IMG/VR virus record: IMGVR_UViG_3300048606_000027
Coordinates: 3,224 to 67,223 of that record
DNA: 64,000 nt
Origin: a virus
Taxonomy: Duplodnaviria; Caudoviricetes
Reading direction: 5' to 3' (one strand)
Positions 2,248 to 43,933 of the stretch are shown here, one piece after another. Below the pieces are notes generated by a model that searched no databases, was not told the DNA's origin, and saw only the letters and a program-made list of their open reading frames with translations. Numbering within the stretch: the first letter of the stretch is position 1; each line of letters starts with the position of its first letter. The position numbers were made by a program, and so were the translations under genes.

Positions 2248-2559
2248 ATGAAATACACCACCGTCCTATGCGTCGGTCTGCTGGCCGGGTGCACACCCGC
2301 TCAACAAACCGCGGTCGATCGCTTCGTTGTCACGGGTCAACTGTTTTGCGCGCGAGCCACGGTGACCGGTCCGCTCGTGGTCGCGCTCGCGGATGCGGCT
2401 GGCGTTCCGTTCACAGTCACCGGCAAGTCCGCCGAGGTCGTGGCCAGGGCCTGCGCGGTCATCGGCGCCATCCCAACCACGCCCCCGCCAAACCCAGGTC
2501 AGGCGCCCGTCGTGGCCGCACCGATCGTCGTGGCGCCGGTGGTCAAACCAACTTCCTGA
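2248..2559 (+). CDS. Lipoprotein (spanin-like or membrane accessory)
   Basis: Signal peptide with lipobox LLAG-C; Pro-rich C-terminus; RBS GGGGAA upstream. Confidence 0.6.
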   Translation: MKYTTVLCVGLLAGCTPAQQTAVDRFVVTGQLFCARATVTGPLVVALADAAGVPFTVTGKSAEVVARACAVIGAIPTTPPPNPGQAPVVAAPIVVAPVVKPTS

Positions 2560-2663
2560 TCTTTATCGGGAGTCCGCCACGGTCACTCCGCTGGAGGCTT
2601 TTCTGTGCCCTTCGCCAATGCCACCGCAGATGCGCCCACTTCTCCGGCGGACGAAGGGCGTGG

Positions 2664-2864
2664 TCATCCGGCATTTACTTTCCTTTTCGGAAGAGAGACG
2701 GCTCGCAAATCGCGACCTCGTGGCGTCAACCACAACAGACCACGTGATACAGTGACCAGACCAGCCTTAACGGCCGCTGAACGCATCGCCTTGTCGTTCT
2801 CCCTCTTTTGCCACCAGCGAAAGAACACGGATGGATCGGTGATTCTGTCCGGGTCATCCGGCAT
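2664..2864 (-). CDS. Hypothetical protein
   Basis: ATG overlaps the stop of the upstream ORF; starts MPDDPDRITD. Confidence 0.4.
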   Translation of the reverse strand: MPDDPDRITDPSVFFRWWQKRENDKAMRSAAVKAGLVTVSRGLLWLTPRGRDLRAVSLPKRKVNAG

Positions 2865-22249: not shown

Positions 22250-22773
22250 ATGACCCTCGCACCCGAGCACATCGACGATCTGATCCGGATGGAACGGCTC
22301 GATGCTGGCTTCCATCAGATGATGGCCGAGCACTGGCACAAAGCGGCGCGGAGGGTGAAGGCGGAGTTCAGGGAGCCCTACCTCGCCGAGGGTGATGAGC
22401 ACCTGGCCAGCGCGAACAGGTGCCTGGCGGCCGCGATCGGGTGGGCAAGCCGATGAGCGAGCCGAAGCTGAAATGCAGCGAACGCGTTCCCTCCGGCAGG
22501 TTCGGCAGGATACCGTGCTCCAAACCCGTCACCGTGGAACGTGACGGCCATCCCTGCTGCACCATCCACGATCCCGAGCGCATCGCAGCCAGACGCGACG
22601 CCTGGAACAGGGCTTATGACGAGCGGGCCATTCGAGATAACCAGATATACGCCAAGACATCCGCGCGCGCCGCCATCGCCACGGCCGCGATCGAAGCCGT
22701 CAACGACGCGGGGTCGCACGACCCCTGGTTCCGGGTGATCGCCGCGGTCAGGAAATGGGAGAAATTGCCGTGA
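22250..22773 (+). CDS. Two coupled small hypothetical proteins (22250-22456 and 22453-22773)
   Basis: ATGA overlap; the second has a C...C...C..H Zn-binding pattern. Confidence 0.45.
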
Positions 22774-22960
22774 TCGGCGTTCAACTGACGATTTTTGATC
22801 GGCACGGTGAGGCGAGTGTATTCCTGCATCCGTCCGGGGACCATATTGTCATCCGCTATCATCCAGACAAGCGCGGCGGCGAGTATCCCAATATCATAGC
22901 GCACGGCTCGGAGCGTTGGGCACGCGATGTTGAAAAAGCGGAAAGGGCGAGTGTGTTTCT

Positions 22961-23947
22961 ATGAGAACTATTGTCGAGATCAAGTTCGGCTCGCACCTGT
23001 ATGGCACCAGCACACCCGCGTCCGACGTTGATTACAAGTCGGTGTTCGTGCCGCCTGCGGATGACATCTTGTTGCAGCGCGTGAAAAACACAATTACGAG
23101 CCAGCGGGCGAAACAGCCATTCGAGAAGAATGTGGCCGGCGAGATCGACCGCGAGGCATACGCGCTGCACCGATACCTTTCTCTGCTGGCCGAAGGTCAG
23201 ACCGTCGCGCTAGACATGCTGTTCGCGCCACGTTGGGCGATGTCCGGCGATCCCGATCCGATCTGGCACACGATCTGGGATGCGCGCCATCAGCTTCTAA
23301 GCCGTCGCGCGGCCAGCTTCATTGGCTACTGCCGGACCCAGGCCAACAAATACGGGATCAAGGGTAGCCGCGTGCATGCGGTGCGCAACATCGTGGAGTG
23401 GTTCGATCAGGCAATCGCGACGCATGGGCATTTGGCCAAGATGGAGGTCGCCACGGGCACGCTTCCCGCGTTCATCGCTGAGCGCACTCTGGACCATACG
23501 GCCATCATCAGCATACCGCATCCGACAAGGCCGGACGTTGGGCTTCCGCACCTGGAATGCTGCAACCGCAAAGCGCCCTTCACGGTGTCACTCAAGGACA
23601 CGCGGGCGATCTATGCGCGGCTTCTCGACGAATACGGCGCCCGAGCGTTGATGGCGGAACGCAATGAGGGCGTGGATTGGAAGGCCCTATCTCATGCGGT
23701 TCGCGTTGGCACCGAAGCGCTGGAACTGCTGGCGACCGGGCATATCACGTTCCCATTGCCGAACGCGGCGCGCGTGCTTGCGATCAAGATGGGCGAGTTC
23801 CCGTATGCCTTGGTCGCGGAGGAAATAGAGGGCTTATTGGAGCGCGTGGAAGCCGCTGAGAAGGTCTCTTCGCTGCCGCTCGTGCCGAACCAGACCATGA
23901 TCGATGATGTCGTGCGTGATGCCTACCGATCAGCGGTAATATCATGA
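22961..23947 (+). CDS. Pol-beta-superfamily nucleotidyltransferase (T4 NrdC.11 / RlaP-like)
   Basis: FGSHLYGTSTPASDVDYK (GS...DxD) and DWKALSHAVR. Confidence 0.8.
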   Translation: MRTIVEIKFGSHLYGTSTPASDVDYKSVFVPPADDILLQRVKNTITSQRAKQPFEKNVAGEIDREAYALHRYLSLLAEGQTVALDMLFAPRWAMSGDPDPIWHTIWDARHQLLSRRAASFIGYCRTQANKYGIKGSRVHAVRNIVEWFDQAIATHGHLAKMEVATGTLPAFIAERTLDHTAIISIPHPTRPDVGLPHLECCNRKAPFTVSLKDTRAIYARLLDEYGARALMAERNEGVDWKALSHAVRVGTEALELLATGHITFPLPNAARVLAIKMGEFPYALVAEEIEGLLERVEAAEKVSSLPLVPNQTMIDDVVRDAYRSAVIS

Positions 23948-31608: not shown

Positions 31609-32073
31609 GTTGCCTAAATCACAGGCATGTGACTATGGTCCGCGCCGAAGGAGACGCTACTGATGGTCGATTACGTCGCCGCGCCTCGCCGTCCACGATC
31701 TGTTGAGGCTGGTGACGATTACTGGCCAGAGACCTGGGAGACGTTGACGGTTATTATTGATGACAATTCCGCTACCGACACCGGCCTTGTCGATCAGCAT
31801 GGCGTGACGATCTGGCGCAAGCCTGCGCGTCATCCGGTCGGCTTCTGATGGCCTTCGATAAGCAGAGGTCGCAGCGATGATACTCCATGTTGATTGGTAT
31901 CGGGCTCAAGAGGCCGCGTTGGCGAAAGAACGGGATGAAATCTTCAGTCGCGGCAAGGCGTCCCATGAGCAAGTTCTAGACAACATTGTCAAAGCCGATG
32001 AGTTAACGGCCCTTGGTTGGACGCAGGACCCTGATACTTATGAGTGGATGTCCCCGCCGAAAGGCTTTTACTG

Positions 32074-34458
32074 ATGGCCCTCGCCGCCAACCGCTCCAAC
32101 GTCCACATCGTCGATCCCTGGCCGCGTGGCGGTCTGGCCGGCACGACGGGCGCGGAGATCGAAGAGGCGCCGGAGAACGACACCAGCATCGTCACGGTCG
32201 AGGACACGGCGGACGGCGGGATCAGCATCACGATCGGCGGCGACAGCGAGCCCGAGGAAGAGACCGCCCCGGATACCAACTTCAACCGCAACCTCGCCGA
32301 GAGCATGGACAGCATGGCGTTGGCCGCGCTCGCCGGTCACCTGCTGGATGGCATCGACGCCGATATCCAGAGCCGCCGGGACTGGGAGGACACCGCGAAC
32401 CGAGCGGCTGACTTTCTCGGGATCAAGCTGGTCGATCCGTCAACTTCGGTATCGGCTGACGGCACGATCAGCAAAGCGGTGGCCACGACATTACTTGAGG
32501 CGGTGGTTAAAATCTGGGGCACGCATCGGGCCGAGCTTCTCCCGGTAAGCGGTCCGGTTAAGGTTCGGCGCGACGATCCGCCGAAGCCTCAGGTCGGACA
32601 CAACGGCGGGCCGCCGCTCGATGATGAGACTGGGATCGCCGCGTCTCAGGTCGATGCGGACGCGGGGGATGACCTCGGCCTCGCACTCGAAAGCGACATG
32701 AACCATTTCCTGACCGTGACGGATCGGGAATACTACCCTGACTTCTCGAAGATGCTGTTCAATCGCGCGCTGATGGGCCTCGCGTTTCGCAAGGTGTTCC
32801 GAGATCCGTTGAAGCGCAGGCCCGCGAGCGTGTGGGTCAAGGGTCAGGATCTGATCGTGAGCAACGATTGTTCGCACCTGTCCGGCGCCGCCCGTGTCAC
32901 CGAGCGGATCAGGATGCGCCAGTCCGTCATGCGGCGGATGCAGGCGGGCGGGCACTATCGCGACGTGCCTCTGGTGCAGCCGACCGGCGATGCATCGCCG
33001 ACCGAGATGGCGGTGGCCGAGACCGAGGGCGTCTCCGCGATGCCGATGCTCCCCGGCGACTATGAGCACACGGTATATGAGACGAACTGCGAACTGGGAT
33101 CGAGCACCACATCATCGTGGATCGGCGACATTTCGAAGCTGGATCGTGATGAGACTGGCAAGAAGCCCGGCTTTCCGTTGCCCTATCGCGTGTCGATCGA
33201 CCTGGACAGCCGCGAGGTGCTGGAGATCAGGCGCGGGTGGAAACAGGGCGACGAGGACTACCGGCCGCGCAAGCGCTACGTCAAATACGGCTTCGTGCCA
33301 GGGCTCGGATTCTATGACCTCGGGCTGATCCATCTCATCGGCAACCCGACGCAGGCGATCACGATGATACAGCGGTCCTGCACCGACGCCGCGGTGCTGG
33401 GCAACTTTCCGGCATGGGCACGACTGAAGGGGCCTGGCTCTCGGCAGCAGAACACGGTGTTGCGTCCCGGACCGGGCGAGATCGTGGACATCGACGCGGC
33501 TGGTTCGCAGAAAATCCAGGATGCGCTGATGCCGTTTCCTTACAAGGACGTGTCCGCGCAGGCGATGGCGATGGCGGCCAAGCTGGAAGGCGACACACGG
33601 CGGCTGGCGGGGATCATCGAGTTGCCCGTGGGAGAGGGGCGCATCGGGAACACGCCTGTCGGCACGATCATGAGCTACATCGAGGCCGTTTCGCAGGTGC
33701 CCGGTGCCATCGCCAAGGACGATCATGTCGCGCAGCAGGAAGAGTTCGAGATGCTGCGGGAATTGTTCGCGGAAGACCCAGAGAGCCTGATCAAGGGCGT
33801 GAAGCGGCCAGCCAGGAAGTGGCAGATCGCCGAGGAACTGATGGACCCGGAGTTGGTACCGGCGGCTGACCCCAACACGCCGAGCATGGTGCATCGGTTG
33901 ATGAAGCTCCAGGCGCTGGTGACGCTGGGCGGTCTGCCGCAGTTCATGGGCATCGCCAATAACCGTGAGATTTATCGCCATTCGGTGCGCATTCTGGCGC
34001 AGGACAACCCCGATGAGTTCGAGATGCCGGAGGCGCCGCCTTCGAGCGAACCGCCTGACCCGAAGATCATCGCCGCCCAAATCAAGGCACAGGCCGATGT
34101 GAGTAAGGCCGAGGCCGGGGCGAAGCGCGACGAACTGAAGCACCAGGGCGACATGGCCGAGATCGCGCTGTCGGCTCAGCAGAAAGAGGCTGATCGCGTG
34201 GCCGGGCTGGAAAAGGCGAAGATGACCTTGCAGGCGGCGGTGGTGAAGACGGCGCACGACGGGATGGGCGCCCACGCTGGCCGGACGCATGAGGCGGGGA
34301 TGTCGGACGCCGATCGGGCGCACGAGGCACAGCAGAAAGAAGCCGACCGGGCACAGCGGCACGCGCAACACCTGAACGAGATGGCGGTGGAGCGGGAGAA
34401 GAACGCTCAGACCTTCGCGGCTCCGCTGATGGCGCCAGATGAGGGGAAGAAGGAATGA
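32074..34458 (+). CDS. Portal protein (P22-like)
   Basis: ~794 aa after TerL; FRKVFRDP, GFYDLGLIHLIG; coiled-coil C-terminal barrel. Confidence 0.85.
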   Translation: MALAANRSNVHIVDPWPRGGLAGTTGAEIEEAPENDTSIVTVEDTADGGISITIGGDSEPEEETAPDTNFNRNLAESMDSMALAALAGHLLDGIDADIQSRRDWEDTANRAADFLGIKLVDPSTSVSADGTISKAVATTLLEAVVKIWGTHRAELLPVSGPVKVRRDDPPKPQVGHNGGPPLDDETGIAASQVDADAGDDLGLALESDMNHFLTVTDREYYPDFSKMLFNRALMGLAFRKVFRDPLKRRPASVWVKGQDLIVSNDCSHLSGAARVTERIRMRQSVMRRMQAGGHYRDVPLVQPTGDASPTEMAVAETEGVSAMPMLPGDYEHTVYETNCELGSSTTSSWIGDISKLDRDETGKKPGFPLPYRVSIDLDSREVLEIRRGWKQGDEDYRPRKRYVKYGFVPGLGFYDLGLIHLIGNPTQAITMIQRSCTDAAVLGNFPAWARLKGPGSRQQNTVLRPGPGEIVDIDAAGSQKIQDALMPFPYKDVSAQAMAMAAKLEGDTRRLAGIIELPVGEGRIGNTPVGTIMSYIEAVSQVPGAIAKDDHVAQQEEFEMLRELFAEDPESLIKGVKRPARKWQIAEELMDPELVPAADPNTPSMVHRLMKLQALVTLGGLPQFMGIANNREIYRHSVRILAQDNPDEFEMPEAPPSSEPPDPKIIAAQIKAQADVSKAEAGAKRDELKHQGDMAEIALSAQQKEADRVAGLEKAKMTLQAAVVKTAHDGMGAHAGRTHEAGMSDADRAHEAQQKEADRAQRHAQHLNEMAVEREKNAQTFAAPLMAPDEGKKE

Positions 34459-37103: not shown

Positions 37104-37640
37104 ATGAAACACCCACTTACAGCAGAATATGTGCGCGGCATTCTAGCCTATCTGCCGGAGGAGGGCCGCTTGATATGGCGCGAACGTCCCGATATGCGGT
37201 TGTGTTGGAACAGGCGCTGCGCTGGTAAGGATGCGGGCTCACTTGGGAGGGGCGGATATCCCCAAGTGCGGATCGACAGCCATAACTATGATGTTCATCG
37301 CATTGTCTGGTTAATCACGCATGGCGTGTGGCCGAGTGAATTGGATCACAAAGATGGCGACCGGAAGAACTTTCGGTTGAGCAATCTTCGGACAGTAAAT
37401 AGGTCGCAGAATTCACAGAACATCAGAATCCATCGAGACAACCAGACCGGTTACAAGGGTGTGATATTTGATAAGCAGACCAAGCGATATCGCGCTCACA
37501 TACAGGCTCAAAAGAAATCCATGCACCTTGGCTGCTTCGCGACTCCGCAAGAGGCTCATGCTGCTTATTTGCGTGCTGCTGGCATTCTCCATGGCGAGTT
37601 TGCGAACCTGAACCGTGAGGTGAGGGCGATATGGCCGTAA
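37104..37640 (+). CDS. HNH-AP2 homing endonuclease
   Basis: VHRIVW..G.WP.ELDHKDGDRKN..LSNLR plus AP2 TGYKGV...YRAHI...LGCFATPQEAHAAY. Confidence 0.9.
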   Translation: MKHPLTAEYVRGILAYLPEEGRLIWRERPDMRLCWNRRCAGKDAGSLGRGGYPQVRIDSHNYDVHRIVWLITHGVWPSELDHKDGDRKNFRLSNLRTVNRSQNSQNIRIHRDNQTGYKGVIFDKQTKRYRAHIQAQKKSMHLGCFATPQEAHAAYLRAAGILHGEFANLNREVRAIWP

Positions 37641-39184: not shown

Positions 39185-39188
39185 ATTG

Positions 39189-39878
39189 ATGTCCGAAACT
39201 ATGATCCCCGTTCTCGATCCCCCAGTGTCCGATCGCGTTCGCAAGGGTTGGCCCAAGGGCAAGCCGCGCGGCGAGCGCACCAAGGCCGTTCGCGAACAGG
39301 CGCCCCGCGTGGCGGAATCACGAACGTCTCACGATGCGGCCGATGTCGGAATCGCCTCCAATCCAGGACCGGCGCAGCGTGCCGAACCATCGCGCGAGGT
39401 CATCAGCGACAATGAGCCGCGCACCCGCGTTCGCCGCGAACAGCGTGCCGTTGGCGGGTTCGATCTCCCCACGCATCTGAAAAAGCCGGGATGGGACTAT
39501 CAGTGGCACGTCGATACGGTGCTGGCGCAACCCGTCGATGCGTCCGAGTTCACGCTGCGACACGAAGCCGGATGGCGCACGGAGAAGGCTGGCAACTGGG
39601 TCGGCTATGCTCCGCCGGGAGCGCAGCCGAATGATCTGGTGCAACGGCTTGGACAGACGCTCTACAGCCGCCCGATGCACATGACGATCGAAGCACGACA
39701 AGAAGACATGGACGCGGCCAATCAGCAGGTCAGAGATCGCGTTCAGGGTTCGATTGAAGGTCGGATCAAGGGCGGCGAAGGCATTTCCGACGTGCGCGGC
39801 GTGCGCCCCGCGGCGTTCTCTCTGGAGATCATCGGCGAGGCTGGCACATCGAGCGAGCCAGTCAGGCGACGAGAGTAG
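39189..39878 (+). CDS. Head-module hypothetical protein
   Basis: HLKKPGWDYQW...GW..LYSRP motif; stop abuts the pentamer array. Confidence 0.6.
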   Translation: MSETMIPVLDPPVSDRVRKGWPKGKPRGERTKAVREQAPRVAESRTSHDAADVGIASNPGPAQRAEPSREVISDNEPRTRVRREQRAVGGFDLPTHLKKPGWDYQWHVDTVLAQPVDASEFTLRHEAGWRTEKAGNWVGYAPPGAQPNDLVQRLGQTLYSRPMHMTIEARQEDMDAANQQVRDRVQGSIEGRIKGGEGISDVRGVRPAAFSLEIIGEAGTSSEPVRRRE

Positions 39879-39882
39879 GCCC

Positions 39883-40032
39883 ACACCAAACCATACCTTA
39901 TCCCACCTCGGCAGACCGCGCCCCGCCTGACCACAACCGACCTCGCCCGACCACGTCTCGTCTAACCATGCCTTGCCGTGCCCGATCCCATCGTTCCTCA
40001 CCCAATCCGGCCAGAGCCTACCGAACCGCGCC
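39883..40032 (-). repeat. Phased pentamer array B (GGY-NN x30), putative guide-RNA array
   Basis: Minus strand GGCGC GGTTC GGTAG GCTCT GGCCG ... GGTAT GGTTT GGTGT; 30/30 units start with G, 20/30 are GGY, 29/30 have a pyrimidine at position 3, no phase slip; begins 7 nt after the RAMP-gene stop. Confidence 0.9.
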
Positions 40033-40039
40033 TGATAAC

Positions 40040-40657
40040 TTAGGCGTCGGATACATCAAAGCCGACTATGGAAAACCGGCCATATGTTGGTCGAAAGTCT
40101 CCCAGTCCGCCAATGCGTCCCGCCAATGTGATAACTTCATGAAGAAGGTCTTGTCCGACATATTCCGGCAACGTGACCATCATCCGGAACTCGCAGGACC
40201 AACCAGCACGCATCGCCGGTCGAATGCGATTGATGCCCGCGCGTTGAATGACGACGCGCCGTTTGTCTTCATAGTCCCACTTCTTGACGCCAAGGCTTGC
40301 CAGCGGAGTCAATGAGACAACCGCCGCTTTGAACAAGTCCATGGCAGACTTGCGAGGGCTGCGAGGGTCCTGTTTGAACTTTGCCGCGAGGATCGCCGCG
40401 CCGCGCAGATATTCACCGGGAATGCAGATCATGCCCGTATCGTCCCGGTAAACATAGCTTTCGACATCATCGGTTTTCTTGGCCGCGCTGTTCTTCGCCG
40501 CCTTCGCTTTTGTGTCTACGCTTTCGGCGTTCCAGCGGTGGAACAGAATGTCAGCCGTGCCACGAATTTTAATCGTCGCGACGTAAGGCATCTCTGTTTC
40601 GATACCTTGGCGACCTCCGTTGGTAACATCATCGTTGATCTTTCTTACTTCGTTCAT
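40040..40657 (-). CDS. Solitary RAMP/Cas7-like protein (~205 aa), putative RNA-guided effector
   Basis: N-terminal beta strand YVATIKIRGTADILFH; RAMP-like CIPGEYLRGA; R.RP...W..EF; C-terminal Gly-rich loop AGRIGGLGDFRPTYGRF; RBS GGGAG upstream of the ATG at 40657. Confidence 0.75.
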   Translation of the reverse strand: MNEVRKINDDVTNGGRQGIETEMPYVATIKIRGTADILFHRWNAESVDTKAKAAKNSAAKKTDDVESYVYRDDTGMICIPGEYLRGAAILAAKFKQDPRSPRKSAMDLFKAAVVSLTPLASLGVKKWDYEDKRRVVIQRAGINRIRPAMRAGWSCEFRMMVTLPEYVGQDLLHEVITLAGRIGGLGDFRPTYGRFSIVGFDVSDA

Positions 40658-40667
40658 TTCAAACTCC

Positions 40668-40832
40668 CAAACAAACCCAACCAGACCGAACCTCGGCGAG
40701 CCATGCTCCAGCATGCCGCGCCATACCGAACCTCACACAACCGCTCCGGACCCAACTCGATCCCACCCGAGCCAACCGAACCTTGCCATTCCAGATCATG
40801 CCGGACCGGACCCGACCACACCTTGGCGTTCC
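40668..40832 (-). repeat. Phased pentamer array A (GGY-NN x33), putative guide-RNA array in the 5' leader
   Basis: Minus strand GGAAC GCCAA GGTGT GGTCG GGTCC GGTCC GGCAT ... GGTCT GGTTG GGTTT GTTTG; 20/33 GGY, 30/33 start with G; the next in-phase unit GGAGT is the RBS. Confidence 0.9.
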
Positions 40833-40837
40833 TAACA

Positions 40838-40890
40838 GAATACCGGATACCGCAAATAGGTTTGACCGTCAATAAGGAATACGGTATTTC
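40838..40890. promoter_or_regulatory. Symmetric back-to-back sigma70-type promoters with operator inverted repeats
   Basis: Palindrome TTGACCGTCAA (40862-40872) gives both -35 boxes; leftward TTGACG-17-TATCCG, rightward TTGACC-17-TATTTC; AATACCG...CGGTATT inverted repeat over the -10 regions. Confidence 0.65.
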
Positions 40891-40896
40891 TTTTGT

Positions 40897-41058
40897 ATGG
40901 CACGCGAATTGAAATTACCCGAACACATTCAAGGCAAATTGGCCGAAGGAACGCTGATGCGTTTGGATGCCAAATTGTTGCCAGGGGAAACGCGGGGAGA
41001 ACAATTGCGGCGAGTTATCGAGGAATGGCTGGCCAATAATCCCTTGCCCATTTCGTGA
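40897..41058 (+). CDS. Small ribbon-helix-helix regulator (53 aa, not in the ORF track)
   Basis: MARELKLPEHIQGKLAEGTLMRLDAKLLPGETRGEQLRRVIEEWLANNPLPIS; ATG 7 nt after the predicted -10 box (probably leaderless). Confidence 0.65.
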   Translation: MARELKLPEHIQGKLAEGTLMRLDAKLLPGETRGEQLRRVIEEWLANNPLPIS

Positions 41059-41174
41059 GCATCGGATAAGCAAACAGTCAATCGCCCTTAGCCAAGCGTG
41101 CTGGGAGCCTTCGTTAGACGGATCGCGCGGCTCCCGGCTGGGGCAAGCGCCACGATCCAGGCGGAAGCCCCTCG

Positions 41175-41789
41175 ATGGCGGCCAATCTTCTCGCCCCAAA
41201 TGGATTGTCGATGAGCCGTGCCCGACTCGGCATGGCCGGCGACTATGCGGCGCAGCAATTCCAGATCCTGAAAACCACCACGACAGCGATCGGAATGGGC
41301 GACGCCGTCCAGACCGGCACCGGTGGTAGCACGGGATATGTGATCCTCGCCGCCGACGGTGCCACATCGCTGCTCGGCGTGTTCGCGGGCGTGCTGCCCT
41401 ACTACGACACCTCGGCACAGCAAACGATGCACGGCATCAACGGCGCGTGGCCTGTGAACGGCATCCAGACGCCGGGCACTTACATTAATTGCCTCGTGAT
41501 CGCGGACCCGTTCGCCACCTTCATCGCCCAGGTCAACGGCGGCACTTACGATCCGTCCTGGCGCGGCAAGAACATCGGCTGGCTCGCGGGCAGCAACGGT
41601 GCGCCGAACAGTGCTGGCCGATCGACGCTGGTGCTCAGCTTCGCGTCACTCGACACCACCAACACCCTGCCATTCCGCATCGTCGGTTCCGCTGGCGTGA
41701 CCGGCGGACCGCAAGACCCCGCCAACACCAATCCCTGGATCGAGGTTCGGATGAATACCGCCGAAGAACTCGCTCCAACCGGCATTTGA
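41175..41789 (+). CDS. Capsid decoration/cement-like protein
   Basis: Gly/Thr-rich beta protein immediately upstream of the major capsid gene. Confidence 0.6.
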   Translation: MAANLLAPNGLSMSRARLGMAGDYAAQQFQILKTTTTAIGMGDAVQTGTGGSTGYVILAADGATSLLGVFAGVLPYYDTSAQQTMHGINGAWPVNGIQTPGTYINCLVIADPFATFIAQVNGGTYDPSWRGKNIGWLAGSNGAPNSAGRSTLVLSFASLDTTNTLPFRIVGSAGVTGGPQDPANTNPWIEVRMNTAEELAPTGI

Positions 41790-41804: not shown

Positions 41805-42713
41805 ATGGCGATCACCACCTCCCAAATCCCCGCTCTGCTCCTGCCGGGCGTCCGCAAGATCAAGGGCCTGTATCGCGAGATGCCGGTCCAGTGGTCTCTC
41901 ATCTACGCCAAGGGCCAGTCGCACATGGAGGCGGAAAAGACCGTCCATGTGCGCTACCTGCCGCTGCCACAGTTGAAGGTGACCGGAGCGCCCACGCAGT
42001 TCGACAACAACTCCGGTCAGCGGTTCACGTGGAACCACATCCATATCGCGTTCGGTCTTGGCTACTCCTTCACCAAGGAAGCGATGGACGACAACCTCTA
42101 CAAGACCTCCTTCAACGCGGCGAACCTCGGCCTCGCGCGGTCGTTCCGCCAGATGAAGGAAGTCCAGGGCGCGGCCACGCTCAACACCGGAAACGTGCTC
42201 AATCCGCAGATCGGCGGCGACAACCTGCCGCTGTTCTCGACGCAGCATCCGGTTGACGGCTACGTGGTTCCGAACACGCCGACGACGCAGGTTGGCCTGA
42301 ACGAAAACTCGCTGATCCTGGCGAACAACATGACGCGCCGGTTCCGCGATGACGCCGGTCTGCTCTACGGCTCGCAAGGCAAGAAGCTGGTTGTCCCGGT
42401 CGAACTCCGCCACGTCGCCAAGCGGCTGATGGAAACGGAGAAGCGGCCCGGCACGAACAACAACGACGTCTGGTCAGTCAAAGAGAACGACGATCTCCGC
42501 GACGGCTACGTGGTGATGGACTTCCTGACCAGTCCGTATGCTTGGTTTGTATTGTCAGATGCGGGCGGACTGATCTGCCTGGAAAGAAAACCGTTCGAGA
42601 CTTCTATGCAGGTTGACTTTACTACTGACAATCTCATGGTGAAGGCGTATGAGCGTTACTACATGGGTGTTGATGACTGGCGTCTTGGAGTAGGATTTTA
42701 TCCTACAAATTAA
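41805..42713 (+). CDS. Major capsid protein
   Basis: 302 aa; FGLGYSFTKEAMDDNLY, GGDNLPLFSTQHP, DFLTSPYAWFV; position in the head module. Confidence 0.85.
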   Translation: MAITTSQIPALLLPGVRKIKGLYREMPVQWSLIYAKGQSHMEAEKTVHVRYLPLPQLKVTGAPTQFDNNSGQRFTWNHIHIAFGLGYSFTKEAMDDNLYKTSFNAANLGLARSFRQMKEVQGAATLNTGNVLNPQIGGDNLPLFSTQHPVDGYVVPNTPTTQVGLNENSLILANNMTRRFRDDAGLLYGSQGKKLVVPVELRHVAKRLMETEKRPGTNNNDVWSVKENDDLRDGYVVMDFLTSPYAWFVLSDAGGLICLERKPFETSMQVDFTTDNLMVKAYERYYMGVDDWRLGVGFYPTN

Positions 42714-42835: not shown

Positions 42836-43933
42836 ATGAACCTATTGGACCGGCTTGAAGCCAATTCGACCTGGATACCGGAGAGCGGATGCCGCGTTTG
42901 GCTCGGCATGATCCACAAGGAGCATGGCCGCATCAAAGTCGCCGGAAAGGCCAGAGACGTTCATCGTGTCGCGTGGGAGATGGAACGCGGACCAATTCCA
43001 AATGGACTATGGGTGCTGCATGATTGTGGCGTGGGGTCGTGCTTCAACGTCGCGCACCTACGGCTCGGAACGAGGACAGAAAACCGCCGTGATCTGAACC
43101 GTCCTGGCGGCTACGATTATTTTTTCCAGCATGGCTCCATGGTGCCGAGATCGCGAGTTCCGGTGACGGATAATCCTCCGGCCAGAAAACCAAAGAGCAA
43201 CGATGCTCCGCTCGACCACGCCGAATTGCTACGGATCATCTCTTATGATCCGGTTCTGGGCGACCTGCGCTGGCGCGCGAGGGATGACCGTGATCATTCA
43301 TGGAACATGAGGTTTGCCGACGAAATTGCCGGATCAGATCAGGCAAACGGTTATCACTACGTTAATTTCAATGGGAAGCTGCGGTTGGCGCACCGTATCG
43401 CTTGGTTCTACATGACCGGCGACTGGCCCGTTGGGCAGATCGACCACATCAACGGTATCCGATCGGACAACCGGTGGCTCAATTTGCGTGTGGTTACGCA
43501 AACGCAAAACAGTGCCAATCAGGGATTGCGCTCGACCAACAGTTCGGGTGTCAAAGGCGTTTCATGGTCGAAGGCAAAGAACCTTTGGCTGGCTACCATC
43601 GTGGTGAACGGCAAGAGCATATTCCTTGGCTACCACAAGACCTTGGATGAAGCCGCTTCAGCCCGCGCGGCTGCGAATGAGAAGTATCACGGCGAACACA
43701 ACAGGGTTGATCCATCTTTTGCCCCGGTGCCGTTCAGCCATCGCAGGAATGACCAATCTGGCGTTAAGGGCGTATCCTTCGACAAGAAGCAGCAGAAATG
43801 GTTCGCTTCGATCACTGCCAAAGGGAAGGCTACCTTCCTGGGCCGGTTCAAGACATTCGAGGAAGCCGCCGCCGCTCGCCGTGCCGCCGAGGCCCTTCAT
43901 CATGGCGATTTCGCCTCTCAGGGAACCCACTGA
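42836..43933 (+). CDS. Tandem HNH-HNH-AP2-AP2 homing endonuclease
   Basis: First HNH (VHRVAW..VLHDC..CFNVAHLRLGT), second HNH (IDHINGIRSDNRWLNLR), two SGVKGV..W.A.I...LG.F AP2 repeats. Confidence 0.88.
   Translation: MNLLDRLEANSTWIPESGCRVWLGMIHKEHGRIKVAGKARDVHRVAWEMERGPIPNGLWVLHDCGVGSCFNVAHLRLGTRTENRRDLNRPGGYDYFFQHGSMVPRSRVPVTDNPPARKPKSNDAPLDHAELLRIISYDPVLGDLRWRARDDRDHSWNMRFADEIAGSDQANGYHYVNFNGKLRLAHRIAWFYMTGDWPVGQIDHINGIRSDNRWLNLRVVTQTQNSANQGLRSTNSSGVKGVSWSKAKNLWLATIVVNGKSIFLGYHKTLDEAASARAAANEKYHGEHNRVDPSFAPVPFSHRRNDQSGVKGVSFDKKQQKWFASITAKGKATFLGRFKTFEEAAAARRAAEALHHGDFASQGTH

What the first reader, a model, noticed from the sequence alone, without database searches (positions are those of the whole stretch)
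39883..41058. Solitary RAMP/Cas7-like gene bracketed by phased GGY-NN pentamer arrays: candidate phage RNA-guided system with a non-contiguous guide code
Seen in sequence: an antisense cassette inside the head operon made of promoter, 33 x 5-nt array, a 205-aa gene, then a 30 x 5-nt array. In both arrays positions 1-3 are conserved (G-G-Y) and positions 4-5 vary freely, with no indel over 150-165 nt. A 5-nt period cannot be a codon effect. The protein has RAMP hallmarks (IPGEYLRGA and a terminal Gly loop GLGDFRPTYGRF). No cas1/2/3/5/6/8/10 or CRISPR repeat-spacer array lies in the window. Established: Cas7-family RAMPs polymerise along guide RNA with a fixed nucleotide period. Inference: each protein subunit binds one GGY and presents the NN, so the NN string is a programmable gapped guide, perhaps against competing phages and probably by binding or repression, since no nuclease is linked. 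This matches my recollection of recently reported VIPR (Viral Interference Programmable Repeat) systems; I cannot verify that citation here.
Basis: partly seen in the sequence, partly recalled or inferred. Interest (0 to 1): 0.97.

Follow-up and report, generated by a model that had tools for sequence, protein, structure and literature searches.

The report
Phage VIPR system: Vipr plus guide arrays
A 67-kb uncultivated phage carries a genuine VIPR system, a Cas7-like protein gene flanked by two arrays of GGY-NN five-base repeats that encode gapped guide RNAs; this CRISPR-related DNA-silencing system was first described in 2026 preprints, so this is a new example of a known kind.

Summary
On the minus strand, a 205-aa gene (40040-40657) is bracketed by two perfectly phased GGYNN arrays: 33 units at 40663-40827 and 30 units at 39883-40032. 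They are the only such runs in 64 kb (run score 14.0 against a null maximum of 3.6).

The protein matches the solved SUSP1 Vipr protein by sequence (PDB 36pp, E 4.5e-7; BLASTP 2e-12). It keeps the GGY-contacting residues and folds as a Csm3/Cas7 RAMP.

Same-strand arrays flank the gene in 85 of the 87 homologous virus and metagenome loci scanned, and in 70 of 73 genome loci. Across this clade, the published 1-nt-skip code gives 203 seed matches, against 8 or fewer for other skip rules or scrambled guides. These include guides aimed at rival vipr genes, the window's among them.

VIPR was published in 2026 preprints, and this scan has met it in at least 11 other genomes. This is therefore a new member of a known kind.

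Local features:
- There is no vap1 homologue and no structured 3' tail.
- The arrays abut the coding sequence.
- A small divergent RHH-like gene shares a palindromic promoter region with the cassette.

Targets of the window's own arrays remain unproven. One candidate exists: 12 units (24/24 bases) in a chromosomal CHASE2 cyclase gene, p about 0.02.

The parts
40897..41058 (+). Small divergent ORF (53 aa), probably a ribbon-helix-helix regulator of the cassette. It may be a vap-like accessory gene, but it is not vap1.
   Evidence: The ORF is conserved at 36-48% identity, divergently upstream of array plus vipr, in the closest relatives (L002-L005, L009, L010, L012), which sit in different genomic contexts. 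The AF2 model shows an extended N-terminus plus two helices, pLDDT 72. The Atlas features search scores 0.92 to a CopG RHH cluster. Foldseek and Pfam give nothing significant.
40838..40896 (.). Divergent promoter/operator region. The palindrome TTGACCGTCAA (40862-40872) supplies a -35 box in each direction. ATACCG/CGGTAT-type repeats lie at 40839-40852 and 40878-40888.
   Evidence: Read directly. Relatives L002, L003, L005 and L012 have the same layout: a TTGACCCGGTCAA palindrome flanked by a different 12-bp inverted repeat, with the array starting about 10 nt after a TAGGCT -10 box. The generic promoter scan does not call it. Function is inferred.
40663..40827 (-). vrRNA array A: 33 GGYNN units forming the 5' leader of vipr. 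The last in-phase units, GTTTG GGAGT, contain the Shine-Dalgarno sequence.
   Evidence: In half of the relatives the upstream array ends 10-28 nt before the start codon.
40040..40657 (-). vipr gene (205 aa), encoding a minimal RAMP/Cas7-like protein.
   Evidence: phmmer against PDB 36pp 'SUSP1 Vipr protein', E 4.5e-7. BLASTP against SUSP1 Vipr, E 2e-12, 28% identity over 191 aa. The AF2 model (pLDDT 80) matches Csm3/Cas7 chains at E about 1e-6, TM about 0.55. phrog_4652, E 2e-16. 7580 homologues.
39883..40032 (-). vrRNA array B: 30 GGYNN units starting 7 nt after the vipr stop codon and ending 5 nt from the stop codon of the convergent gene 39186-39878.
   Evidence: In relatives the downstream array starts a median of 6 nt after the stop codon. 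No structured tail or T-run terminator follows it here (z +0.4). Relatives L002, L003, L005, L006 and L012 end in a GC hairpin followed by a T-run.
39888..39947 (-). Units 18-29 of array B: a candidate 12-unit guide whose NN string matches a CHASE2 adenylate/guanylate cyclase gene under the 1-nt-skip rule.
   Evidence: The metagenome pattern scan gave 5 seed hits. Three of them (L173, L176, L177) extend to 24/24 informative bases. They are in frame with the motif DRVQGAL(E/D)GKIF, with the skip base at the wobble position. My estimate of chance is about 0.02. No second guide converges on these contigs.
40080..40102 (+). Site inside the window's own vipr (the G-loop codons GDFRPTYG, antisense strand) that a guide of a related phage (L009) matches.
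   Evidence: Eight consecutive units, 16/16 informative bases. The same guide hits 36 vipr genes but not L009's own, which uses AGA in place of CGN for the Arg codon.

Best explanation
This is a VIPR system of a tailed phage.

The cassette probably reads: divergent promoter, array A, vipr, array B. It is most likely transcribed as one RNA on the minus strand, antisense to the surrounding head-gene operon. Vipr, a minimal RAMP, polymerises on the GGYNN tracts with one protomer per pentamer. It flips out and sequesters G1, G2 and Y3 and presents the NN bases. The resulting filament reads double-stranded DNA with a gapped code (NN, skip one base, NN) and silences transcription of the bound gene. 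The arrays of 30-33 units have no tails or spacers, so each probably yields two or three guides of about 9-16 units.

What is shown here:
- the arrays;
- homology of the protein to Vipr, with the GGY-contact residues conserved;
- co-occurrence of gene and arrays across about 160 loci;
- support for the 1-nt-skip code in this clade from natural matches.

What is inferred from the SUSP1 work: transcription, processing, filament formation and silencing in this phage. The targets of this phage's own guides are not established.
For: Protein:
- PDB 36pp SUSP1 Vipr, E 4.5e-7; BLASTP 2e-12; tblastn also reaches phiSUSP1 and other Felixounavirus-type coliphages.
- SUSP1 contact residues map to residues that are invariant in this clade, or nearly so (E82): H17 to H40, E71 to E82, R138 to R146, D177 to D187, W178 to F188, R179 to R189.
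- Cas7/Csm3 fold.

Arrays:
-.
- My caller recovers exactly the one upstream and three downstream vrRNAs of SUSP1, as a positive control.

Co-occurrence:
- Same-strand arrays flank the gene in 85 of the 87 virus and metagenome loci scanned (one of the 87 is the SUSP1 reference locus) and in 70 of 73 genome loci.
- Phages with identical Vipr differ by whole-unit blocks in their arrays.

Code:
- I tested 364 arrays against 3.4 Mb of related loci with 8-unit exact seeds.
- The 1-nt skip gave 203 diagonals, 35 distinct guide segments and 38 hits scoring 20 or more.
- Skips of 0, 2 and 3, and shuffled or reversed guides, gave 8 diagonals or fewer. None scored 20 or more, apart from one probable array-to-array artefact.
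- Guides match either DNA strand. The L005 guide is sense-identical and the L009 guide is antisense-identical, which fits DNA targeting rather than mRNA targeting.

Phage context:
- The record has a 127-bp direct terminal repeat.
- It encodes a portal protein and a Mu gpT-like major head protein.
Against: - There are no expression or binding data for this phage.
- 37% of the units depart from GGY, against 22% across the clade. The functional SUSP1 vrRNAs are similarly degenerate.
- There is no vap1 homologue.
- There is no conserved structured 3' tail like the SUSP1 pseudoknot.
- No intrinsic terminator follows array B.
- SUSP1 K33, the backbone contact next to the skip base, aligns to Ala53, although K50, K52 and K55 flank it.
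- No target of the window's own arrays rose above shuffled-guide nulls in its own genome, in 3.4 Mb of related loci, or in 139 vipr genes.
Confidence: 0.93

Rival explanations
1. The arrays are mainly cis-acting. Vipr coats the leader and trailer of its own mRNA. Array A runs in phase into the Shine-Dalgarno sequence, so the repeats would serve translational autoregulation or act as a protein sponge rather than as trans-acting guides.
For: Array A ends in the RBS, and array B starts 7 nt after the stop codon. This tight abutment is conserved in the clade. No significant target was found for array A.
Against: The NN positions are hypervariable between phages with identical Vipr. Arrays of relatives have highly non-random 1-nt-skip matches to other elements, which a purely cis role does not predict. 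The two roles are not exclusive: autoregulation may coexist with guide production.
Confidence: 0.1
2. The cassette is a decaying or inactive VIPR remnant. The gene is intact, but the arrays are drifting and no longer specify live targets.
For: Only 63% of units are perfect, against 78% clade-wide. There is no terminator and no vap gene. No confirmed target was found.
Against: Perfect phase is kept over 150 and 165 nt with no indel. G1 is kept in 60 of 63 units. All GGY-contact residues are intact. The promoter palindrome and RHH-like gene are conserved. A 24/24 in-frame candidate target exists. Failing to find targets for an uncultivated phage with an unknown host is expected.
Confidence: 0.05
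3. It is a solitary CRISPR-type Cas7 (a type III, IV or VII remnant), and the GG-periodic flanks are unrelated low-complexity DNA.
For: The best structural matches in the fold library are Csm3 and type VII Cas7 chains.
Against: The fold library predates release of the Vipr structure. By sequence, the only significant PDB match is SUSP1 Vipr. The Pfam RAMP model does not match. There is no CRISPR array and no Cas1. The flanks co-occur with the gene in more than 95% of about 160 loci.
Confidence: 0.01

Closest known systems
Type II VIPR system of Escherichia phage SUSP1 (Vipr, Vap1, four vrRNAs; bioRxiv 10.64898/2026.04.26.720920 and .720927; PDB 36pp)
   Same: Both have a roughly 200-aa minimal RAMP with the same G-loop, thumb Arg and helix-1 residues. 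Both have GGYNN pentamer guides on both sides of the gene and on the gene's strand. Both are phage-encoded with no cas genes. The 1-nt-skip code is supported in this clade.
   Different: Protein identity is only 28%. There is no vap1 homologue. SUSP1 has discrete vrRNAs of 10-15 units, each with a tail of about 40 nt containing a pseudoknot and spacing between them. Here there are two uninterrupted arrays of 30-33 units that touch the RBS and the stop codon, with no structured tail. A divergent RHH-like gene takes the place of an in-operon accessory gene.
VIPR systems with long 'staggered' vrRNA arrays (same preprint, text and fig. S18 legend)
   Same: Both have long contiguous pentamer arrays without spacers or tails, from which several vrRNAs are thought to be cut. 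Relatives of the window's system reach 146 units.
   Different: vrRNA boundaries inside the window's arrays are unknown. I found no periodic punctuation.
Cas7/Csm3 backbone subunits of class 1 CRISPR-Cas effectors (for example 6xn5, 6ifn, 8z4l)
   Same: Both share the RRM core, glycine-rich loop and thumb. Both polymerise along the guide RNA with a fixed nucleotide period (for Vipr).
   Different: CRISPR uses a 6-nt period with one flipped base and a contiguous spacer. VIPR uses a 5-nt period with three sequestered bases and a gapped code. This locus has no CRISPR repeat-spacer array, no Cas1, and no other effector subunits.
Anti-VIPR vrRNAs (guides aimed at other VIPR systems; 10.64898/2026.04.26.720920 section 8 and 10.64898/2026.10.15.759431 section 8)
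   Same: Relatives L009 and L005 carry short arrays right after vipr that match conserved vipr motifs of other phages: the G-loop GDFRPTYG and WDYEDRRRVV. The window's vipr is among the genes hit.
   Different: The window's own arrays show no such anti-vipr segment. Here the window's phage is the predicted target, not the aggressor.

Membership tests
VIPR | Vipr protein: a minimal RAMP homologous to the published Vipr proteins | tested here: met
   PDB 36pp SUSP1 Vipr, E 4.5e-7. BLASTP E 2e-12 over 191 aa. RAMP fold, Foldseek E about 1e-6 to Csm3/Cas7.
VIPR | Residues that bind G1, G2 and Y3 of the repeat (SUSP1 H17, R138, D177, W178, R179, E71) | tested here: met
   They align to H40, R146, D187, F188 (aromatic kept), R189 and E82. 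All are invariant or nearly so in 29 clade members. K33 is not conserved at the aligned position (A53).
VIPR | Tandem YNNGG/GGYNN repeats (4 units or more) next to vipr on its strand | tested here: met
   33 and 30 units in perfect phase, with a run score 31 sd above the null.
VIPR | GGY conserved while NN is hypervariable among relatives | tested here: met
   Across 84 arrays and 3086 units in the clade, 78% are GGY. NN strings are unrelated between loci. Phages with identical Vipr differ by whole-unit blocks. NN entropy in the window is 1.9-2.0 bits.
VIPR | Minimal locus without a CRISPR array or cas genes, typically in a virus | tested here: met
   No CRISPR-like repeat. No Cas1 or RAMP Pfam hit in the 67-kb record. 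The record is a virus record with a direct terminal repeat and carries portal and major head genes. Only these cas families were tested.
VIPR | Accessory vap gene (described as typical, not universal) | tested here: inconclusive
   No vap1 homologue. A conserved divergent 53-aa RHH-like ORF may play an accessory or regulatory role.
VIPR | Targets obey the 1-nt-skip (NNx) code on dsDNA | tested here: inconclusive
   Met for the clade: 203 seed diagonals against 8 or fewer for controls, with matches on both strands. For the window's own arrays there is only one candidate, 24/24 bases and p about 0.02.
VIPR | vrRNAs are expressed, co-purify with Vipr and silence transcription | not testable with these tools
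   This needs sRNA-seq, pull-down and reporter assays.
VIPR type II (SUSP1/P. fulva clade) | Discrete vrRNAs of 9-16 repeats, each capped by a conserved structured 3' tail, plus vap1 | tested here: not met
   The arrays are contiguous, 30-33 units long. The flank after array B is not structured (z +0.4). There is no vap1. Vipr identity to SUSP1 is 28%.
Class 1 CRISPR-Cas | CRISPR repeat-spacer array and further cas genes (Cas1/2, Cas5, large subunit) | tested here: not met
   Neighbouring genes are head genes and HNH endonucleases.

The most novel reading that the evidence does not exclude
The 3' half of array B (units 18-29, 39888-39947) may be a guide against a chromosomal host gene, a CHASE2-sensor adenylate/guanylate cyclase. 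That would mean this phage uses VIPR to silence a host signalling gene rather than a competing mobile element. The match is 24/24 informative bases. It is in frame with the skip base at the wobble position. It occurs in two organisms whose sequences differ at most third codon positions in the site. The gene sits among housekeeping genes (PFK, AdoHcy hydrolase, Rpe).
Probability: 0.3. Interest if true: 0.6.

Novelty: new member of a known kind. Interest (0 to 1): 0.35.

Why it matters
VIPR is a newly described RNA-guided DNA-recognition system, proposed to be older than CRISPR. Each new well-resolved locus helps map its diversity.

This locus belongs to a very large clade that is strikingly conserved. 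There are 7580 homologues, and identity is still about 60% across loci assigned to Planctomycetota, Pseudomonadota, Bacillota, Cyanobacteria and even an archaeal MAG. The clade differs from the SUSP1 model in architecture:
- The arrays are tail-less and form the leader and trailer of the vipr mRNA.
- Relatives carry up to 146 units.
- A divergent RHH-like gene is present, and its flanking repeats differ from locus to locus.

The clade-level test gives independent in-silico support for the 1-nt-skip code outside Enterobacteria and Pseudomonas. It also shows rival-vipr targeting in which the guide-carrying phages' own vipr genes mismatch the guide, by using AGA rather than CGN Arg codons (plus a Lys substitution in L005).

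None of this changes the category. It is a good specimen, not a discovery of a new kind.

Tried and rejected
1. Self-targeting. A 1-nt-skip scan of the 67-kb genome with both arrays gave best scores inside the shuffled-guide null.

2. Targets in related phage and genome loci (2.4 Mb, then 3.4 Mb). Nothing rose above the null. The best hit, array A units 6-17 on L076 (21/24), was reached by 1 of 40 shuffles and is out of codon phase, so I treat it as chance.

3. Anti-vipr targeting by the window's arrays under skips of 0-3. Not significant.

4. Six exact 9-unit seeds against IMG/VR. They gave 0-9 hits each and none extends beyond the seed. Seeds cover only about 40% of possible 12-unit registers, and mismatches are not tolerated, so this is a weak negative.

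5. The 12-unit array-B pattern with up to 2 or 3 mismatches. No match in the three genomes holding L100, L101 and L105, or in 401 genomes of the order of the closest genome hit, a Sterolibacterium MAG. The host remains unknown.

6. A second guide converging on the cyclase contigs. None found.

7. Rfam families, including hammerhead ribozymes, across 39300-41400. None found.

8. Periodic punctuation of arrays by degenerate GCY units. No preferred spacing.

9. A structured tail after array B, or structure within array B. z-scores were +0.4 and -0.65.

10. Fold of the 53-aa ORF. Foldseek gave nothing with an E-value below 6.

12. The preprint's supplementary tables are not held, so the published type (I-VII) could not be assigned.

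Full report
**What is in the sequence**

On the minus strand the region reads, 5' to 3':
- an intergenic stretch with the palindrome TTGACCGTCAA (40862-40872);
- array A, 33 pentamers at 40827-40663;
- an RBS (GGGAG) and a 205-aa ORF at 40657-40040;
- after 7 nt, array B, 30 pentamers at 40032-39883, ending 5 nt from the stop codon of the convergent plus-strand gene 39186-39878.

In both arrays the register never slips.

| Array | Units | Perfect GGY | G1 | G2 | Y3 |
|---|---|---|---|---|---|
| A | 33 | 20 | 30/33 | 26/33 | 30/33 |
| B | 30 | 20 | 30/30 | 21/30 | 29/30 |

Positions 4 and 5 are almost maximally variable (1.90-1.99 bits). A phase-aware scan of both strands of the whole window finds only these two runs. 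Their score of 14.0 compares with 2.68 +/- 0.36 (maximum 3.6) in 40 Markov surrogates. Tandem Repeats Finder misses them because the units are too degenerate. It shows no CRISPR-like array anywhere.

**The literature**

Three 2026 bioRxiv preprints describe VIPR systems:
- Vipr is a minimal RAMP protein.
- vrRNAs are made of YNNGG/GGYNN repeats.
- One protomer binds per repeat. It sequesters G1, G2 and Y3 and presents the NN bases.
- Double-stranded DNA is recognised with one skipped base between NN pairs (the 1-nt-skip rule), and the bound gene is silenced.
- Natural targets are mostly competing phages, satellites and other VIPR systems.
- Seven types exist with varied array architectures, including long 'staggered' arrays and ribozyme-interspersed arrays, and six kinds of accessory (vap) genes.

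**The protein is a Vipr**

- Pfam finds nothing. PHROGs gives phrog_4652, of unknown function, at E 2e-16.
- Against all PDB sequences the only significant match is 'SUSP1 Vipr protein', 36pp, at E 4.5e-7.
- BLASTP against the SUSP1 gene fetched from NC_028808 gives E 2e-12 and 28% identity over 191 residues. tblastn reaches phiSUSP1 and other Felixounavirus-type coliphages.
- The SUSP1 residues that hold the GGY bases align as follows: H17 to H40, E71 to E82, R138 to R146, D177 to D187, W178 to F188, R179 to R189. These are invariant, or nearly so (E82), in a 29-member alignment of the clade.
- K33 of SUSP1 aligns to Ala53 within a lysine-rich helix.
- An AF2 model (pLDDT 80) matches Csm3 and type VII Cas7 chains at E about 1e-6 and TM about 0.55. 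The fold library predates release of the Vipr structure.

**Gene and arrays travel together**

The family is very large, with 7580 proteins at E of 1e-3 or better. I fetched 6 loci by identity, 80 from IMG/VR and 73 from GTDB genomes.

My caller recovers exactly the published one upstream and three downstream vrRNAs of SUSP1, which serves as a positive control. Same-strand GGYNN arrays flank the gene in 85 of the 87 virus and metagenome loci scanned (one of the 87 is the SUSP1 reference locus) and in 70 of 73 genome loci. Some reach 146 units and had been mis-called as ORFs.

The downstream array starts a median of 6 nt after the stop codon. The upstream array ends 10-28 nt before the start codon in half of the loci. 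In this clade the arrays are therefore the leader and trailer of the vipr transcript.

Phages with identical Vipr differ by insertion, replacement or recombination of whole-unit blocks. This is the hypervariability expected of guides.

**The local cassette**

The closest relatives are L002, L003, L005 and L012. They share a TTGAC-N-GTCAA palindrome flanked by inverted repeats, with the array beginning about 10 nt after a -10 box, then vipr, then the second array. In those four loci and in L006 the downstream array ends in a strong GC hairpin and T-run. Beyond the promoter lies a small divergent ORF.

The window's version of this ORF is 40897-41058 (53 aa). It is 36-48% identical to those of the relatives. 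Its flanking repeats differ in sequence from theirs, as expected if the protein binds them.

Its model has an extended N-terminus plus two helices. A language-model search places it near CopG RHH clusters at 0.92. Pfam and Foldseek are silent. I read it as a probable RHH regulator with moderate confidence.

There is no vap1 homologue in the genome. No Rfam family, including hammerhead ribozymes, matches the region. No structured tail follows array B. No intrinsic terminator follows it either, so transcription probably runs antisense into the neighbouring head gene.

**Genomic context**

The record is a 67,223-bp virus contig with a 127-bp direct terminal repeat and 60.5% GC. It has no close relative among deposited phages. 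Its genes include a portal at 32044-34458, a Mu gpT-like major head protein at 41805-42713, and free-standing HNH endonucleases at 37104-37640 and 42836-43933. Relatives carry the cassette in quite different neighbourhoods, so it behaves as a mobile module.

**Does the gapped code hold in this clade?**

I took all 364 distinct arrays (7538 units) from the fetched loci. I searched 3.4 Mb of those loci on both strands, with arrays masked, using exact 8-unit spaced seeds under skips of 0, 1, 2 and 3. Shuffled and reversed guides served as controls.

| Guide set | Seed diagonals | Hits scoring 20 or more |
|---|---|---|
| 1-nt skip, real guides | 203 (35 distinct guide segments) | 38 (best: 16 units) |
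| Skips 0, 2, 3, and shuffled or reversed guides | 8 or fewer each | 0, apart from one probable array-to-array artefact at skip 3 |

This independently supports the published rule for a clade only 28% identical to SUSP1 Vipr.

Two cases are especially clear:
- **L009.** The 15-unit array directly after its vipr matches the antisense strand of the G-loop codons (GDFRPTYG) in 36 vipr genes. This includes the window's gene at 40080-40102, with 8 consecutive units and 16/16 bases. L009's own gene escapes because it uses AGA instead of CGN for the Arg codon.
- **L005.** Its 13-unit array matches the sense strand of the WDYEDRRRVV codons in about 30 vipr genes. L005's own gene has Lys plus two AGA codons there. 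The window has Lys (AAA) at one unit, giving 18/20.

Sense-identical and antisense-identical guides both occur, which argues for DNA targeting rather than mRNA targeting. Anti-VIPR guides are already reported in the preprints.

**Targets of the window's own arrays**

Nothing exceeds shuffled-guide nulls in its own genome, in the related loci or in 139 distinct vipr genes under any skip rule. Six exact 9-unit seeds against IMG/VR gave only seed-length hits.

One metagenome scan with array-B units 19-28 gave five hits. Three of them (L173, and the near-duplicates L176 and L177) extend to units 18-29, which is 24/24 informative bases. The site is in frame with the motif DRVQGAL(E/D)GKIF of a 977-aa CHASE2-adenylate/guanylate cyclase. 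The skip base is at the wobble position. L173 and L176 differ at most third codon positions in the site (8 of 12) yet keep every NN. The gene lies among housekeeping genes (PFK, AdoHcy hydrolase, Rpe), so it is chromosomal.

From amino-acid frequencies I estimate about one in-frame chance seed hit in a collection of this size. The chance that such a hit extends by the two flanking units is about 0.006. With about three independent events, overall p is about 0.02.

No other part of either array converges on those contigs. The pattern with up to 2 or 3 mismatches is not found in 404 genomes around the closest genome-borne relative. I keep this as a lead at about 30%, not a finding.

**Verdict**

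This is a new member of a known kind.

It is not a type II (SUSP1-like) system. The closest described architecture is the long tail-less 'staggered' array. I could not assign a published type because the supplementary tables are not held.

Noticed in passing
L009:10630-10704 and L005:6630-6694 (related phage contigs); target sites in window 40080-40102 and 40251-40279: Short arrays immediately after vipr in two related phages are guides against the most conserved vipr motifs of other phages (the G-loop GDFRPTYG and WDYEDRRRVV). Each carrier's own vipr mismatches its guide at Arg codons that use AGA instead of CGN; L005's also has a Lys substitution. The window's vipr is fully matched by the L009 guide core (16/16 bases). 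A Lys codon partly protects it from the L005 guide.
   Followed up: yes
L176:6376-9309 (-), L173:3-1625 (+): A chromosomal CHASE2-adenylate/guanylate cyclase gene carries a 24/24 1-nt-skip match to array-B units 18-29 of the window. The match is in codon phase. This is a possible host-gene target of a phage VIPR, with p about 0.02.
   Followed up: partly
L005:6738-7467; L014; L009:10745-11154: Relatives carry uninterrupted GGYNN arrays of 82-146 units (up to 730 nt). Gene callers had annotated one of them as a 249-aa protein. Such arrays are a likely source of spurious ORFs in phage annotations.
   Followed up: partly
L002:1789-1948 and 2497-2726 (minus strand); the same in L003, L004, L010, L012; L005:1881-1975 and 2643-2857: Additional large GGYNN arrays (19-47 units) lie 3-4 kb from vipr on the opposite strand in related phages. 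These are orphan arrays away from the gene. The window has none.
   Followed up: no
Genome-contig loci L100-L172: This Vipr clade keeps about 55-65% identity across loci assigned to Planctomycetota (many Phycisphaerae), Pseudomonadota, Bacillota (Alicyclobacillus), Cyanobacteria, Acidobacteriota, Patescibacteria and a Bathyarchaeia MAG. That is unusually strong conservation for a phage-borne protein. The closest genome hit (84%) is a 1.5-kb contig binned with a Sterolibacterium MAG.
   Followed up: partly
OR003939.1 (Phage DSL-LC04) 22429-23046, locus L008:3983-4600: A 63%-identical Vipr in a deposited phage genome is annotated as 'helix-turn-helix transcriptional regulator'. It has 41 upstream GGYNN units that are not annotated.
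   Followed up: partly
window 37104-37640 and 42836-43933: Free-standing HNH endonuclease genes lie within about 3 kb on either side of the VIPR cassette, inside the head-gene region. They are not conserved next to vipr in relatives, so I do not count them as part of the system.
   Followed up: partly
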